Positions 4,228-7,753 of a DNA stretch of 64,000 bases are shown in pieces. Under the pieces are notes generated by a model that worked only from the letters and a program-made list of their open reading frames with translations, did no database searches and was not told the DNA's origin. The DNA lies in IMG/VR virus record IMGVR_UViG_3300028635_000005. One strand, written 5' to 3'. Position 1 is the stretch's first letter; each line of letters begins with the position of its first letter. A program made the translations under genes and the position numbers. The stretch comes from a virus.

Positions 4228-4857
4228 TTAGGTAGCTTTAGTTTTTCTCCCTTTTACCCATCCCTTTAAAAGATATTCATCTAATAAAGTTTTATCTATT
4301 CTTTTTGTATAGTTTAAATCTTTATTGTATATCCAAATTGTATTATAATTCGGATTTTTTTCCTTAGTTTTATTAAACATGCCATTTTTATTTCCTGAAA
4401 CTAAATAGCCATTATTACGCATACCATTATTAAGACTAATCTTTCTTTTAGTAATGTCTGACATGCGCATACCCTTATTTTTTGATATTCCTTTTTCGCT
4501 ATTACTAATTTTTTTTCGAGTAATTTCAGAATGATGTTTATTTTTCATAGGAGAAATCCTGCCCTTTGCTGAGCCGCCTTTGCCTCCTATTTTTAAATTA
4601 TAACATTTGGGGTCGTTTAAAACATTATCATTTACAATTTTTGCTTCATAATCCAATGCTTCTTCAAATGTATTAAAAAATTTTAAAATTTCTCTTTTAA
4701 AATTTTCTTTTCCATATTTTTTAATTGCATTTTTAATGTATTTGCCCGAACCCATATACATGTCGTTTAAGTTCGAAGTTTTATGTACCCCATAATAAAA
4801 GTTTTCTGTAATTAAATTTACTACTCGATAGAAATAATTATAATAATGCTTAGACAT
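4228..4857 (-). CDS. free-standing GIY-YIG homing endonuclease (Seg-like, NUMOD3-type tail)
   Basis: YFYRVVNLITENFYYGVH...YMGSG...IKKYGKENFKREIL catalytic domain; HHSEITRKKIS and MSDITKRKIS repeats. Confidence 0.88.
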   Translation of the reverse strand: MSKHYYNYFYRVVNLITENFYYGVHKTSNLNDMYMGSGKYIKNAIKKYGKENFKREILKFFNTFEEALDYEAKIVNDNVLNDPKCYNLKIGGKGGSAKGRISPMKNKHHSEITRKKISNSEKGISKNKGMRMSDITKRKISLNNGMRNNGYLVSGNKNGMFNKTKEKNPNYNTIWIYNKDLNYTKRIDKTLLDEYLLKGWVKGRKTKAT

Positions 4858-4877: not shown

Positions 4878-4905
4878 AAAAGGGTGGAATTAATTCCACC
4901 CTTTT
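4878..4905 (-). terminator. intrinsic terminator (perfect 28-bp palindrome) closing the tmRNA transcript
   Basis: AAAAGGGTGGAATTAATTCCACCCTTTT, with T-runs on both strands. Confidence 0.75.
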
Positions 4906-5165
4906 TTTCATTTGTCGTATACAAACTTCTTAAGCTGCCATACGATACTCTTTAAACTGTTCGCCGTTTAATTGCGTCTTGAGATGTTCGCTATTACCCT
5001 TAGTATGCAATCAAAGCCAAGTCATCCCCATTTATGATTGATTAGCTGGCTCAATCATCAAAGCCTTTATAAGTTCCTTTCCAACGGAAAAGAATCGTGG
5101 AGATGGCGGGAATCGAACCCGCGTCTTACATACCTACTCTCTAACTATCCTTTCGGAGTGTCTCA
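4878..5165 (-). ncRNA. ssrA: circularly permuted (two-piece) tmRNA gene
   Basis: On the minus strand the T-arm GCGGG-TTCGATT-CCCGC (5122-5106) and 3' acceptor strand CATCTCC-A (5105-5098) come before the 5' acceptor strand GGGGATG (5029-5023). These give 7 bp including G3:U70. Helix TTGCATAC/GTATGTAA. Tag frame 4965-4930 reads GEQFKEYRMAA-stop. The outer ends are approximate. Confidence 0.9.
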
Positions 5166-5223
5166 ATATCTTAAATATAATACCAAAAATCAATTTTGAT
5201 ACTTTAACTTTGTTAATTTATAG

Positions 5224-5989: not shown

Positions 5990-7753
5990 TTAAATTCCTA
6001 AGTCGCTATCTGCATCAGGCATTTCTTCCATTCCTGGTTCTTCAGGAGCTCCTCCTCCAAGATCCATGTCTGGGCCTCCTCCAAAATCAGAACCTCCTCC
6101 AAAGCCACCACCACTTTCGCCTTCATCGCTTTTATTTAATCTTTTAACTGCATCTGCAATACGAGAAAGTTGTTCTCTTCTTTCCTTTTTGTATTTTGCA
6201 TTAAGTTTAAGATCTTCTTCTGTAAAGTTCATATATTTCTCAACTAAGAATTTTGGATCAAAGTACATTCCATCCATTGTAATTTTTCCTTCATCATCTA
6301 CTTCAGGCTGTCTAATGTTCATAAGCTTTTCAACTATATCTGCGCCTTTTGAAATTATATCTCTTTTCTTAGCTTCAGTAAATAAGTTTTCTTCAATAAA
6401 TTGAATGCCTATTGCGCCTTTCAAGGCTTTATCTTTTGCAAATTCGGGATGTTTCAAACAAAATTGAATCCACATCGGTTTGTGTAATATTTCCTGTAAA
6501 ATTGTACGAATTCTATTAATAAAATAATTGAAACGTATTTCCTCTCTTGCAATACTATCTCCTCCGGAATTCCATGCTGATGTTGCATCTTCACCACTTA
6601 TAGAAGAAAACCTATCCTTTGGAATTTTCGTTTCAATGATAAACCGTTTCCAGAAATACCCCAACGCATTTGTATCTGAAAGATCATATCCCGCTGGGGC
6701 AAAAGAATCTATTTCAGTTTGGCTTCCTTCTTTAGAAGGAATAATATATTGTTTTGCAAATGAAAAGTTAGGTTGTCCATTTATAGTTATTTCACCGCTA
6801 TCATAATCGATGTTAACATCTTCTTTATATATTCCTCTAAGTTCTGATAATCTTGTACGAGCTTTAACTTCAGATTGTGTACCTATAGGAACAACTATTT
6901 TCATTCTGTGTTGTGAATTAATAATGTTCCATATAATACGGGAATTTTCCATTGTTCTTAGCATGTTAAAAGATCTAACCAATCTTTCTACGTAAGATAA
7001 TCTTGAAATAAAATTATTTCGTGCCCATGAGATATAAATTACATTACCATCAACTAATTCTCTTTGTCTTTTTGCGTCTCCTCTGAATTGAACCCAAACC
7101 CGATATTCATTTTCTTCTTCATCTATTCGTAATTCAGGTTCTAATGTAACGGGATCTAATTCTTTAAATCCTAAAATGTTTTTTGCATCTTCATCTCCTT
7201 CTCCGTCATAAATTATTTCAAAGGCAAGAAATCCGTCAATAAGAAATTTTTTACAATAGTGCCAAGCAGCATGTCCTTGATTAAATCCAAATGCATAATA
7301 AACTCTTTTAAATGATTCATTTAAATCATCTACAATTTCTTTAGCCTTTTCAGCTTTTAAAACAGATTTAAGCTTTTGCGTATTTGGATATGCAAAAAAG
7401 TTAGCATCATCTTGGATAATAGTTTCATCGGCAATAACATCTAAAACGTATTCTATTTCACCATTCATTGCAAATCTTCTTAAGAAGTCTCTTCTTGTCG
7501 GATATTCTTTGTCATAAAAAGCAATAAATTCTGTTTGTCCAATATCTCTGCCTGCGGCCATTTGAGGTTGACCATATAGGCTATACATTGAATCTTCTTG
7601 AATTTCAGATATTCCGATAGACTTGGATTGTTTAATGAGATTTTGATCCCATTTCATTCCTAGCACAGAAAGATAACGAATATTTCTTTGTAAATTATCT
7701 AAAAATCCTCGGGAGCCTCTATCTAAATTGCGTAATGAAAATATTCCAGCCAC
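5990..7753 (-). CDS. gp20: portal protein, T4 gp20-like
   Basis: EIEYVLDVIADETI, FLIDGFLAFE, SYVERLVRSFNMLRTMENSRIIW, SLGYF...PKDR-type motifs of gp20; GTG start; late motif at 7772-7780. Confidence 0.88.
   Translation of the reverse strand: MAGIFSLRNLDRGSRGFLDNLQRNIRYLSVLGMKWDQNLIKQSKSIGISEIQEDSMYSLYGQPQMAAGRDIGQTEFIAFYDKEYPTRRDFLRRFAMNGEIEYVLDVIADETIIQDDANFFAYPNTQKLKSVLKAEKAKEIVDDLNESFKRVYYAFGFNQGHAAWHYCKKFLIDGFLAFEIIYDGEGDEDAKNILGFKELDPVTLEPELRIDEEENEYRVWVQFRGDAKRQRELVDGNVIYISWARNNFISRLSYVERLVRSFNMLRTMENSRIIWNIINSQHRMKIVVPIGTQSEVKARTRLSELRGIYKEDVNIDYDSGEITINGQPNFSFAKQYIIPSKEGSQTEIDSFAPAGYDLSDTNALGYFWKRFIIETKIPKDRFSSISGEDATSAWNSGGDSIAREEIRFNYFINRIRTILQEILHKPMWIQFCLKHPEFAKDKALKGAIGIQFIEENLFTEAKKRDIISKGADIVEKLMNIRQPEVDDEGKITMDGMYFDPKFLVEKYMNFTEEDLKLNAKYKKERREQLSRIADAVKRLNKSDEGESGGGFGGGSDFGGGPDMDLGGGAPEEPGMEEMPDADSDLGI

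What the first reader, a model, noticed from the sequence alone, without database searches (positions are those of the whole stretch)
4878..5165. Compact circularly permuted two-piece tmRNA gene in a phage, with its own tag GEQFKEYRMAA
Seen in the sequence (minus strand): the acceptor piece (...GTATGTAA-GAC-GCGGG TTCGATT CCCGC-CATCTCC-A, ending at 5098) comes first. A 68-nt spacer follows, containing the hairpin ATGATTGA/TCAATCAT. Then comes the coding piece, starting GGGGATG at 5029. The two pieces form a 7-bp acceptor stem with the G3:U70 alanine identity pair, plus a TTGCATAC/GTATGTAA helix. The tag frame is GGC GAA CAG TTT AAA GAG TAT CGT ATG GCA GCT TAA, ending in AA like ssrA tags and starting GE like Bacteroidota tags. 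The coding piece is only about 150 nt up to the terminator, leaving no room for pk2-pk4. Established: two-piece tmRNAs with this order occur in alphaproteobacteria, some betaproteobacteria, some cyanobacteria and some mitochondria, while Bacteroidota ssrA is normally one-piece. Inference: this may be an independent permutation in a phage lineage, giving a minimal tmRNA that tags with a phage-specific degron.
Basis: partly seen in the sequence, partly recalled or inferred. Interest (0 to 1): 0.9.

Follow-up and report, generated by a model that had tools for sequence, protein, structure and literature searches.

The report
Two-piece tmRNA gene of huge phages
A large phage carries a real, strongly conserved "split and reordered" ribosome-rescue RNA (tmRNA) with its own protein-degradation tag, and comparison with related phages suggests that the reordering arose inside this phage lineage rather than being borrowed from the bacteria known to have it.

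Summary
Window 4878-~5172 (minus strand) is a circularly permuted tmRNA gene. Rfam RF04321 scores 61.2 bits against a cut-off of 47. ARAGORN at relaxed threshold gives the tag GEQFKEYRMAA.

At least 33 related huge-phage contigs (portal 61-91% identical) carry the same gene downstream of the portal gene. Across 29 aligned copies, 42 of 51 base pairs show compensatory changes and G3:U70 is kept. The tag frame is conserved: 27 distinct tags, 22 ending MAA.

Comparative analysis adds two intermolecular helices, P2b and P2c. They fill the space where pseudoknot 1 normally sits, so the RNA appears to lack all four pseudoknots.

The gene fails the alpha/beta/cyano lineage models (best is beta, 37 bits against 84). 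Outgroup megaphages (Lak-B4, LR756500 and three IMG/VR genomes) carry one-piece tmRNAs. Lak-B4 and LR756500 share the E[MF]RMAA tag ending. The portal tree needs only one change of gene form. No relative examined encodes SmpB, including a complete 405-kb genome.

Permuted tmRNAs in phages are already documented, so the call itself is not new. The separate phage-born origin and the pseudoknot-free architecture seem undescribed. The same stretch was noted twice more by this scan.

The parts
5098..5172 (-). Acceptor piece of the two-piece tmRNA. The 5' end is approximate. The 3' end is the discriminator A at 5098. CCA is not encoded.
   Evidence: Rfam RF04321 alignment. Conserved block AAGATATTGAG...TCCAC in 29 homologs. 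The bases after the discriminator are C then a variable base, so CCA must be added.
5161..5166 (-). P2c strand UUGAG(A). It pairs with 4984-4979 of the coding piece.
   Evidence: Column-pair scan. 5 of 5 pairs show double changes and 86.9% of cells are paired. The single-sequence MFE fold finds the same helix.
5148..5157 (-). Small 5' hairpin of the acceptor piece: UCC-GAAA-GGA.
   Evidence: The hairpin is present with different sequences in all homologs. 4 of 4 pairs covary. It also appears in the MFE fold.
5142..5145 (-). P2b strand GUUA. It pairs with UAGC at 4993-4990.
   Evidence: Helix at columns 70-74/314-319 of A4. 91% of cells are paired and 5 of 5 pairs show double changes.
5126..5133 (-). 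P2a 3' strand GUAUGUAA.
   Evidence: Pairs with 5010-5003. RNAalifold recovers the helix. 8 of 8 pairs covary.
5106..5122 (-). T arm: GCGGG, loop UUCGAUU, CCCGC.
   Evidence: 100% of cells are paired and all 5 pairs show compensatory changes across 29 homologs.
5099..5105 (-). Acceptor stem 3' strand CAUCUCC. U5101 is U70 of the G3:U70 pair.
   Evidence: The 7-bp stem covaries at pairs 4-7. G3:U70 is kept in 28 of 29 aligned rows, and the exception is a misaligned row.
5030..5097 (-). Intervening spacer removed during maturation. It holds two hairpins, at 5094-5074 and 5058-5034.
   Evidence: Spacer length ranges from 15 to 141 nt among homologs. Both hairpins appear in the MFE fold. Hairpin 2 covaries in 10 homologs.
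4878..5029 (-). Coding piece, 152 nt, from G1 to the terminator U tract.
   Evidence: Rfam alignment. Near-identity to L049 across this stretch while the flanks are about 80% identical.
5023..5029 (-). Acceptor stem 5' strand GGGGAUG. G5027 is G3.
5003..5010 (-). P2a 5' strand UUGCAUAC.
4979..4993 (-). P2b strand (UAGC, 4993-4990) and P2c strand ((U)CUCAA, 4984-4979). They occupy the place of pseudoknot 1.
   Evidence: The PK1 hairpin of the RF04321 model is unpaired or deleted in the alignment. The resume codon lies at offset 65, against about 95 in Bacteroidota tmRNAs.
4930..4965 (-). Tag reading frame: GGC resume codon (4965-4963), peptide GEQFKEYRMAA, stop TAA (4932-4930).
   Evidence: ARAGORN -ps. 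The same frame is open in all homologs, giving 27 distinct tags of 10-14 aa, 22 of them ending MAA. UAAAC precedes the resume codon in 26 of 30.
4915..4945 (-). Helix 5. The 3' half of the tag ORF pairs with downstream sequence, with the stop codon in and next to the loop.
   Evidence: RNAalifold. 87.7% of cells are paired with compensatory changes. Also present in the MFE fold.
4878..4902 (-). Terminal hairpin plus U tract, a likely intrinsic terminator and the 3' end of the coding piece.
   Evidence: the scan lists it on the + strand; the hairpin is palindromic. The equivalent hairpin covaries in homologs.
5990..7753 (-). Portal protein gene. It marks the syntenic position and served as the phylogenetic marker.
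   Evidence: phrog_213, E 4e-52. Used to find relatives and to build the tree.

Best explanation
This is a functional two-piece (circularly permuted) tmRNA gene of a huge lytic phage.

**Proposed mechanism (inferred by analogy with Caulobacter two-piece tmRNA).**
- One transcript starts near 5172 and ends at the hairpin and U tract at 4878.
- RNase P cuts 5' of G5029.
- The 68-nt spacer is trimmed back to the discriminator A5098, and CCA is added.
- The resulting ~75-nt acceptor piece and 152-nt coding piece stay together through the 7-bp acceptor stem and three helices: P2a, P2b and P2c.
- Host AlaRS charges the RNA through G3:U70 and A73.
- Host SmpB and EF-Tu deliver it to stalled ribosomes. 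The phage clade encodes no SmpB.
- Translation resumes at GGC (4965) and appends Ala-GEQFKEYRMAA, a degron ending in AA.

**Evolutionary reading.** The permutation arose once at the base of this clade, from a one-piece tmRNA already carried by Lak-related megaphages. PK2-PK4 were lost, and PK1 was replaced by intermolecular helices.

**Shown:** gene anatomy, covariation, tag-frame conservation, distribution among phages, absence of SmpB.
**Inferred:** processing sites, charging, tagging, host, direction of evolution.
For: **Family assignment**
- Rfam RF04321 scores 61.2 bits against 47.
- ARAGORN -ps calls a permuted tmRNA with this tag.

**Selection on the RNA**
- The gene is about 96% identical to L049, where the flanks are about 80% identical.

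**Presence in relatives**
- Relatives with portal identity of 61% or more carry the gene 0.6-4 kb downstream of the portal gene.

**Covariation, 29 sequences and 51 pairs**
- 86.9% of cells are paired, against 71% after shuffling and about 45% when partners are slid.
- 42 pairs show double changes.
- None of 500 shuffles reaches the observed values.
- G3:U70 and the discriminator A are invariant while neighbouring pairs covary.

**Tag frame**
- The frame is always open.
- Both Ala codons vary at synonymous third positions.
- 22 of 27 tags end MAA.

**SmpB**
- No SmpB in five relatives, including a complete 405-kb genome.

**Origin**
- beta_tmRNA is the best lineage-specific model, at 37.4 bits against 84.
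- One-piece tmRNAs occur in Lak-B4, LR756500, G115, G117 and G118, and none of these has a permuted hit.
- The one-piece tags are DDEIEFRMAA (Lak-B4) and GNNAEMRMAA (LR756500).
- The portal tree puts all carriers of the permuted form on one side of a branch, with Lak-B4 as sister.
Against: - No expression, processing or charging data exist.
- ARAGORN's default threshold rejects the window's copy.
- The close relative L049 has a non-canonical T loop, AUCGUAC. A few others have GGCGGAA-type loops. Some copies may therefore be impaired.
- Three fragmentary clade members show no tmRNA.
- P2b and P2c were discovered on the same alignment that was used to score them.
- Profile scores do not place the family clearly closer to Bacteroidota or outgroup-phage tmRNAs than to alpha-like phage tmRNAs.
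- Other compact permuted tmRNAs exist in unrelated viral contigs. Transfer between phages cannot be excluded.
- The Lak-B4 branch in the portal tree is long, and the split has only 88% SH-aLRT support.
Confidence: 0.82

Rival explanations
1. A functional two-piece tmRNA, but the permuted form was acquired by horizontal transfer and then adapted its tag. The donor would be a bacterium of a known two-piece lineage (alpha, beta or cyano) or another phage. It did not arise in this phage lineage.
For: Permuted tmRNAs are common in marine phages and match their hosts' lineages (PMC9004378). The window's T arm and acceptor 3' strand (28 nt) are identical to many alpha-like phage tmRNAs. Other compact permuted tmRNAs occur in unrelated phages, one of them a complete 51-kb genome. 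Profile scores are undecided.
Against: The alpha, beta and cyano Rfam models are far below their cut-offs. The D-loop analogue reads UUUGA as in Bacteroidota, not UUCGA as in the alpha-like set. The GGC resume codon and GE(N)xY tag start resemble the Bacteroidota type. Outgroup megaphages hold one-piece tmRNAs, two of them with the same E[MF]RMAA ending. The portal tree needs only one change.
Confidence: 0.2
2. A tmRNA-derived RNA that no longer tags proteins. Its tRNA-like domain would act as a decoy that binds host SmpB and blocks host trans-translation, as proposed for the TLD-only RNA of mycobacteriophage DS6A.
For: All pseudoknots are lost. The phage has no SmpB. Some relatives have degenerate T loops. 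A TLD-only phage tmRNA that inhibits tmRNA is on record (PMC4131195 and PMC11915505).
Against: The tag frame is always open across 27 distinct tags, keeps the ...AA stop ending, and shows synonymous variation in the Ala codons. The UAAAC resume context and helix 5 are also conserved. A decoy would not need any of these.
Confidence: 0.08
3. A decaying remnant or an attachment-site fragment of a host tmRNA gene, with no function.
For: tmRNA 3' fragments are common in temperate phages as attP sites (general knowledge). ARAGORN flags the window's copy as sub-threshold.
Against: Both halves are present together with a complete tag frame. The gene is conserved far above its flanks. Compensatory changes run through 42 of 51 pairs across a clade whose portals are only 61-91% identical. 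No integrase lies nearby, and the neighbours are the portal gene and a GIY-YIG endonuclease.
Confidence: 0.02

Closest known systems
Two-piece tmRNA of Alphaproteobacteria (Caulobacter ssrA; Rfam alpha_tmRNA RF01849), plus the beta (RF01850) and cyanobacterial (RF01851) forms
   Same: The gene order is the same: acceptor piece, spacer, coding piece. The tRNA-like domain is assembled from two RNAs, pseudoknots are reduced, and the tag ends in AA. It matches the merged model RF04321 above the cut-off.
   Different: It fails the lineage-specific models (best is beta, 37.4 bits against 84). The PK1 hairpin of the model is absent, and two intermolecular helices, P2b and P2c, sit in its place. The resume codon is Gly/GGC and the D-loop analogue reads UUUGA. 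It is carried by a phage, not a chromosome.
Permuted tmRNAs of marine phages (OM43 phage Melnitz, pelagimyophages, cyanophages; PMC9004378)
   Same: Both are phage-borne two-piece tmRNAs. In both cases no SmpB gene is reported nearby.
   Different: The marine ones resemble their hosts' alpha or cyano lineages, have A-N-D-type tags and resume offsets of about 85-90 nt, which leaves room for PK1. This family has offsets of 56-69 nt, GE...MAA tags, and relatives with one-piece genes.
One-piece tmRNAs of Lak megaphages (Prevotella phage Lak-B4) and the huge phage LR756500
   Same: The portal proteins are related (38-43% identity). The tags have the same ending, E[MF]RMAA, and a UAAA(U/C) resume context. 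Lak-B4 has the identical acceptor stem, GGGGAUG/CAUCUCC. The Lak-B4 gene also lies next to the portal gene.
   Different: These are standard one-piece genes of about 410 nt with the pseudoknot region (RF00023 scores 47-95 bits). In Lak-B4 the gene lies upstream of the portal gene, not downstream.
Bacteroidota chromosomal tmRNA (tag GENNYALAA)
   Same: GGC resume codon and a tag starting GE(N)xY. UUUGAC in the D-loop analogue. The CUGUUUGGAC motif before the T arm in part of the family. UAAAC-GGC-GAA-AAU as in some Flavobacteriia. CCA is mostly not encoded.
   Different: The bacterial gene is one-piece, about 397 nt, with the resume codon at about 95 nt and a tag ending ALAA. Profile similarity to the phage family is weak.
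TLD-only tmRNA of mycobacteriophage DS6A
   Same: Both are reduced phage tmRNA derivatives that depend on host SmpB.
   Different: DS6A lacks a tag frame. This gene keeps a conserved one.

Membership tests
tmRNA (any form) | tRNA-Ala-like domain: 7-bp acceptor stem with G3:U70, discriminator A, and a T arm with a 5-bp stem and 7-nt loop | tested here: met
   Sequence reading. The stem and T arm covary, and G3:U70 and A73 are invariant in 29 homologs.
tmRNA (any form) | A short internal reading frame without a start codon that ends in hydrophobic-A-A plus a stop, and is conserved as a frame | tested here: met
   GEQFKEYRMAA*. 27 distinct in-frame tags among homologs, 22 ending MAA.
tmRNA (any form) | Helix 5 enclosing the end of the tag frame and the stop codon | tested here: met
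   RNAalifold and pair counts. MFE fold.
tmRNA (any form) | Pseudoknot PK1 between helix 2 and the resume codon | tested here: not met
   Only 37 nt separate P2a from the resume codon, and the covarying helices P2b and P2c use that stretch. The model's PK1 hairpin is unpaired. PK1 is typical of tmRNA but not universal.
tmRNA (any form) | Alanylation, SmpB binding and trans-translation activity | not testable with these tools
   Requires experiments. No SmpB gene was found in relatives, so host SmpB would be needed.
Rfam RF04321 tmRNA_permuted | Score at or above the curated gathering score (47 bits), with the acceptor piece upstream of the coding piece | tested here: met
   61.2 bits over the full model, positions 1-213. 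Homologs score 47.6-77.7 bits.
Rfam RF01850 beta_tmRNA / RF01849 alpha_tmRNA / RF01851 cyano_tmRNA | Score at or above the lineage model's gathering score | tested here: not met
   beta_tmRNA is the best of the clan at 37.4 bits against 84. The alpha and cyano models scored lower and were suppressed as overlapping clan hits.
Rfam RF00023 standard one-piece tmRNA | Collinear gene running from the 5' acceptor strand to the 3' acceptor strand | tested here: not met
   The gene order is permuted. No RF00023 hit reaches the gathering score in the window.

The most novel reading that the evidence does not exclude
A further, independent origin of two-piece tmRNA that took place inside a virus lineage. 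A one-piece tmRNA already resident in Lak-related megaphages became circularly permuted at the base of this clade. It lost all four pseudoknots, with PK1 replaced by two helices formed between the two RNA pieces. It kept a phage-lineage degron, ...E[MYF][KR]MAA, distinct from the host's ...YALAA. If true, phages would evolve their own trans-translation RNAs over long periods rather than merely sampling host genes.
Probability: 0.55. Interest if true: 0.7.

Novelty: new variant of a known kind. Interest (0 to 1): 0.6.

Why it matters
Circular permutation of tmRNA is recorded for three bacterial lineages and for mitochondria. A separate event inside a phage lineage, with one-piece relatives still extant, would give a natural before-and-after pair for asking how permutation happens and what it costs.

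The family is also a natural minimal tmRNA. It has a tRNA-like domain, three intermolecular helices, a tag frame and helix 5, and no pseudoknots. This bears on the long-running question of what the pseudoknots, PK1 above all, are needed for.

The tag ending is conserved among phages and differs from the presumed host's tag. That raises a testable question: do these phages redirect tagged proteins to a different fate during infection?

In practical terms, default ARAGORN misses the window's copy and at least two relatives, so such genes are under-annotated in huge-phage genomes.

Tried and rejected
- **ARAGORN at default settings:** no call in the window. It needed -ps.
- **Whole-genome look-ups:** no genome is held for this window.
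- **megablast of 20 kb against GenBank phages:** no match. blastn of the gene found only the T-arm match to mycobacteriophage tmRNAs.
- **Exact T-arm pattern in IMG/VR:** 48 loci, none a true relative, because the T arm is conserved across tmRNAs.
- **nhmmer group-against-group profiles to decide the origin:** undecided. The viral comparison set was also biased by how it was collected.
- **Bacteroidota -7 promoter box TAnnTTTG:** not enriched in the window, 108 found against 104 expected. The TATATTTG seen upstream in some relatives remains only a lead.
- **Phylum-wide RF04321 search around a genome reached through a locus:** 0 of 101 genomes above the cut-off, but the phylum is not named, so the result is of little use.
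- **Tenacibaculum phage PTm1 and Sphingomonas phage PAU:** no tmRNA of either form. No cultured anchor for the host was found.
- **Classic two-piece tmRNA papers (PMC516066, PMC16621):** not held. Statements about their structures rest on my own knowledge and on PMC11915505.
- **Attachment-site fragment reading:** rejected, because both halves and a conserved tag frame are present.
- **A tmRNA sequence tree:** not built. Too few unbiased columns were available.

Full report
**1. Observation**

- T arm GCGGG/TTCGATT/CCCGC, 5122-5106.
- Acceptor 3' strand CATCTCC, 5105-5099, and discriminator A at 5098.
- A 68-nt spacer, 5097-5030, with two hairpins.
- GGGGATG at 5029-5023.
- The TTGCATAC/GTATGTAA helix.
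- The frame GGC GAA CAG TTT AAA GAG TAT CGT ATG GCA GCT TAA, 4965-4930.
- A terminal hairpin with a U tract ending at 4878.

Rfam 15 matches 4930-5149 to RF04321 (tmRNA_permuted) at 61.2 bits. The gathering score is 47, and E is 2e-9 for the whole window. ARAGORN at default finds nothing in the window. At relaxed threshold it reports a permuted tmRNA with the tag GEQFKEYRMAA*. The 298-nt precursor folds at -78.8 kcal/mol with z = -3.1. The fold contains the T arm, acceptor stem, both spacer hairpins, helix 5 and the terminator.

**2. Context**

The window is part of a large phage genome.
- PHROGs matches include the portal protein (5990-7753), DNA polymerase, UvsX-like recombinase, DnaB-like helicase, topoisomerase II subunits and a gp46/SbcC-like protein.
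- A GIY-YIG homing endonuclease lies directly downstream of the tmRNA.
- No genome is held for the window, and no GenBank phage record is close at the DNA level.
- The portal is most similar to those of the Prevotella megaphages Lak (about 43%) and to uncultured huge phages such as LR756500 (38%). It is more distantly similar to Tenacibaculum phage PTm1 and Sphingomonas phage PAU.

**3. Relatives**

A DNA pattern from the coding piece found one close relative, L049. It is about 80% identical over 6.8 kb but about 96% identical in the tmRNA. The coding piece differs at a single base.

Portal-based searches of IMG/VR gave 9 and then 80 loci. Among relatives with portal identity of 61% or more, nearly all have a permuted tmRNA 0.6-4 kb downstream of the portal gene on the same strand.
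- Rfam scores range from 47.6 to 77.7 bits.
- ARAGORN -ps of them.
- Two that ARAGORN missed are found by Rfam.
- Three fragmentary contigs show none.
- Contigs of this clade reach 405 kb, and that one is complete with terminal repeats.

**4. Structure and covariation**

RNAalifold on nine short-spacer members independently recovers P2a, the T arm, the acceptor stem, helix 5 and the terminator. Compensatory changes occur in 27 of 37 pairs.

A scan of all column pairs in the 29-sequence alignment A4 revealed two further helices.
- P2b: acceptor-piece GUUAU with coding-piece AUAAU. In the window this is 5145-5142 with 4993-4990.
- P2c: the conserved UUGAG just upstream of the small 5' hairpin, paired with CUCAA. 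In the window this is 5166-5161 with 4984-4979.
- The window's single-sequence fold finds P2c on its own.

Pair counts for the full 51-pair structure:
- 86.9% of cells are paired, against 71.0% after shuffling and 42-47% when partners are slid.
- 42 pairs show changes on both sides.
- The covariation score is 0.46 against 0.19.
- None of 500 shuffles reaches the observed values.

G3:U70 is U:G in 28 of 29 rows, and the exception is a misaligned row that I checked by eye against the sequences. The discriminator A is invariant, while acceptor pairs 4-7 covary (for example GGGCCAU/AUGGUCC in L083).

One caveat applies. P2b and P2c were found on the alignment used to score them. The slid-partner control and the single-sequence fold reduce that circularity but do not remove it.

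**5. Consequences of the structure**

The acceptor piece must begin at or before 5166, probably near 5172, at the conserved AAGAUAUUGAG.

Only 37 nt separate P2a from the resume codon, and P2b and P2c use them. The PK1 hairpin of the Rfam model is unpaired in the alignment. The resume codon lies at offset 56-69 nt in the family. The offset is about 95 nt in Bacteroidota tmRNAs and about 88 nt in other viral permuted tmRNAs. The RNA therefore appears to lack PK1 as well as PK2-PK4. A three-way junction (P2b, the 5' hairpin and P2c) stands 13 nt upstream of the resume codon, where PK1 normally is.

From my own knowledge, not checked here: PK1 of E. coli tmRNA can be replaced by a simple hairpin (Tanner et al. 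2006). That would make such a substitution plausible.

**6. Tag**

All homologs keep an open frame in the same register. There are 27 distinct tags of 10-14 residues. Twenty-two end MAA, and the others end IAA, LAA, VAA or MVA. Fifteen start GE. The two Ala codons vary at their third positions. UAAAC precedes the resume codon in 26 of 30. The resume codon is GGC in 22, GCA in 5 and GAC in 3. The 3' half of the frame and the stop codon lie in helix 5, with compensatory changes. This pattern is what a translated tag predicts, and it argues against a non-coding decoy.

**7. Host and partner proteins**

A scan of one genome per prokaryotic species for DNA encoding GENNYALAA hit almost only Bacteroidota. 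All 67 tmRNAs recovered there are one-piece, about 397 nt.

The phage family shares several features with them:
- the GGC resume codon;
- the GE(N)xY tag start;
- UUUGA rather than UUCGA in the D-loop analogue;
- in part of the family, CUGUUUGGAC before the T arm;
- mostly no encoded CCA.

Together with the kinship to Lak phages, this points to a Bacteroidota host. The link is indirect. The Bacteroidota promoter box TAnnTTTG is not enriched in the window.

No SmpB (PF01668) is encoded in five relatives, including the complete 405-kb genome. Host SmpB would therefore be required.

**8. Origin of the permuted form**

The lineage-specific Rfam models are not met. beta_tmRNA is the best, at 37.4 bits against 84.

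The outgroup megaphages carry one-piece tmRNAs:

| Genome | RF00023 score |
|---|---|
| LR756500 | 95.5 bits |
| Lak-B4 | 47.3 bits |
| G115 and G118 | 64.3 bits |
| G117 | 85.5 bits |

None of them has a permuted hit. The tags of the two nearer outgroups are GNNAEMRMAA (LR756500) and DDEIEFRMAA (Lak-B4). They share the E[MF]RMAA ending of the permuted family, for example GETVNEMRMAA and GEQFKEYRMAA. The more distant group has long tags ending EFAVAA or ELAVAA. Lak-B4 has the same acceptor stem as the window, and its tmRNA lies about 400 nt upstream of its portal gene.

A maximum-likelihood portal tree puts all 30 scored carriers of the permuted form, plus 11 unscored rows, on one side of a branch.
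- Lak-B4 is sister to that group. SH-aLRT is 99 for the joint clade and 88 for the split.
- The other scored one-piece carriers lie across the root.
- One change of gene form suffices.

The simplest reading is that a phage-resident one-piece tmRNA became permuted once at the base of this clade.

Weaknesses:
- Profile similarity between the family and the outgroup tmRNAs is modest, 14.5 bits, and confined to the tag region. It is no better than the similarity to other groups.
- Lak-B4 sits on a long branch.
- Compact permuted tmRNAs also occur in unrelated viral contigs, one of them a complete 51-kb phage without a related portal. Transfer among phages remains possible.

**9. What is known already**
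- Permuted two-piece tmRNAs in phages are documented. Fifty-three of 133 unique tmRNAs in isolate phage genomes were two-piece, mostly marine and matching alpha or cyano host lineages (PMC9004378).
- Huge-phage surveys list tmRNAs found by ARAGORN without describing them (PMC7162821; PMC9723777).
- The current tmRNA database holds 79 phage sequences. It lists 48 permuted genes in Bacteroidota genomes against 24,380 standard ones, without comment (PMC11915505).
- Full-text searches found no description of this lineage, its architecture or its tag.

The identification as a permuted tmRNA is therefore routine. The separate origin, the pseudoknot-free design and the phage-lineage tag appear to be new.

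**10. Verdict**

This is a real, selected, probably functional two-piece tmRNA (confidence about 0.8). I rate an independent, phage-born permutation at about 0.55-0.65. Novelty class: new variant of a known kind. Interest: 0.6.

Noticed in passing
window 5030-5097 (minus); A4 columns about 219-271; L066, L072, L075, L081, L082, L086, L087, L090: The spacer is not random filler. Ten homologs share a structured module. It consists of a stem CCUUKG...CMAAGG around a GUAGGGA-containing loop, followed 3-4 nt before G1 by a covarying hairpin NNNNUUGA-(G/A)CC(A/C)GCUAA-UCAANNNN. Other homologs have spacers of only 15-21 nt and lack the module. No Rfam family matches it. Its role is unknown; it could aid processing, be a separate small RNA, or be an inserted element.
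   Followed up: partly
window 4228-4857 (minus): A GIY-YIG homing-endonuclease gene (phrog_314, E 1e-39) starts 21 nt after the tmRNA terminator. Similar GIY-YIG genes follow the tmRNA in the L081/L086 group but not in other relatives. These are mobile endonucleases next to a gene that has been rearranged.
   Followed up: partly
L049:11130-11150 (minus); L068, L072 and L097 in A4 columns 99-105: Some family members have non-canonical T loops. L049 has AUCGUAC, which swaps the 54 and 58 positions relative to the window's UUCGAUU. L068 and L072 have GGCGGAA, and L097 has GGCAGAA. ARAGORN flags these as sub-threshold.
   Followed up: no
L060 / MK250023.1 416686-418860: In Prevotella phage Lak-B4 a one-piece tmRNA (tag DDEIEFRMAA) lies immediately upstream of the portal gene. 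The Lak portal frame contains 10 in-frame stops under table 11, which fits the known TAG recoding of Lak phages.
   Followed up: partly
A4 columns about 455-500; relatives L082, L083, L090, L092, L094, L095, L099: A conserved GATATATAAATAAAA-like motif follows the tmRNA terminator in many relatives. It resembles a T4-type late promoter (TATAAATA) for the next gene. The window's copy lacks it.
   Followed up: no
L031 (IMGVR_UViG_3300002219_000058, 51 kb, complete); L029 and L043: Other compact permuted tmRNAs sit in viral contigs with no related portal. Their resume offsets are 57-63 nt, their D-loop analogue is of the UUUUGAC type, and their tags are GKTFEMFHAPLRAVA and ANDNFALAA. Pseudoknot-poor two-piece tmRNAs may be more widespread in phages than this one clade.
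   Followed up: partly
window 5173-5200 (minus); L066, L070 upstream regions: Several relatives have TATATTTG about 9 nt upstream of the conserved AAGATATTGAG. This is a perfect match to the Bacteroidota -7 box TAnnTTTG. The window has TATATTTA. The motif is not enriched window-wide.
   Followed up: partly
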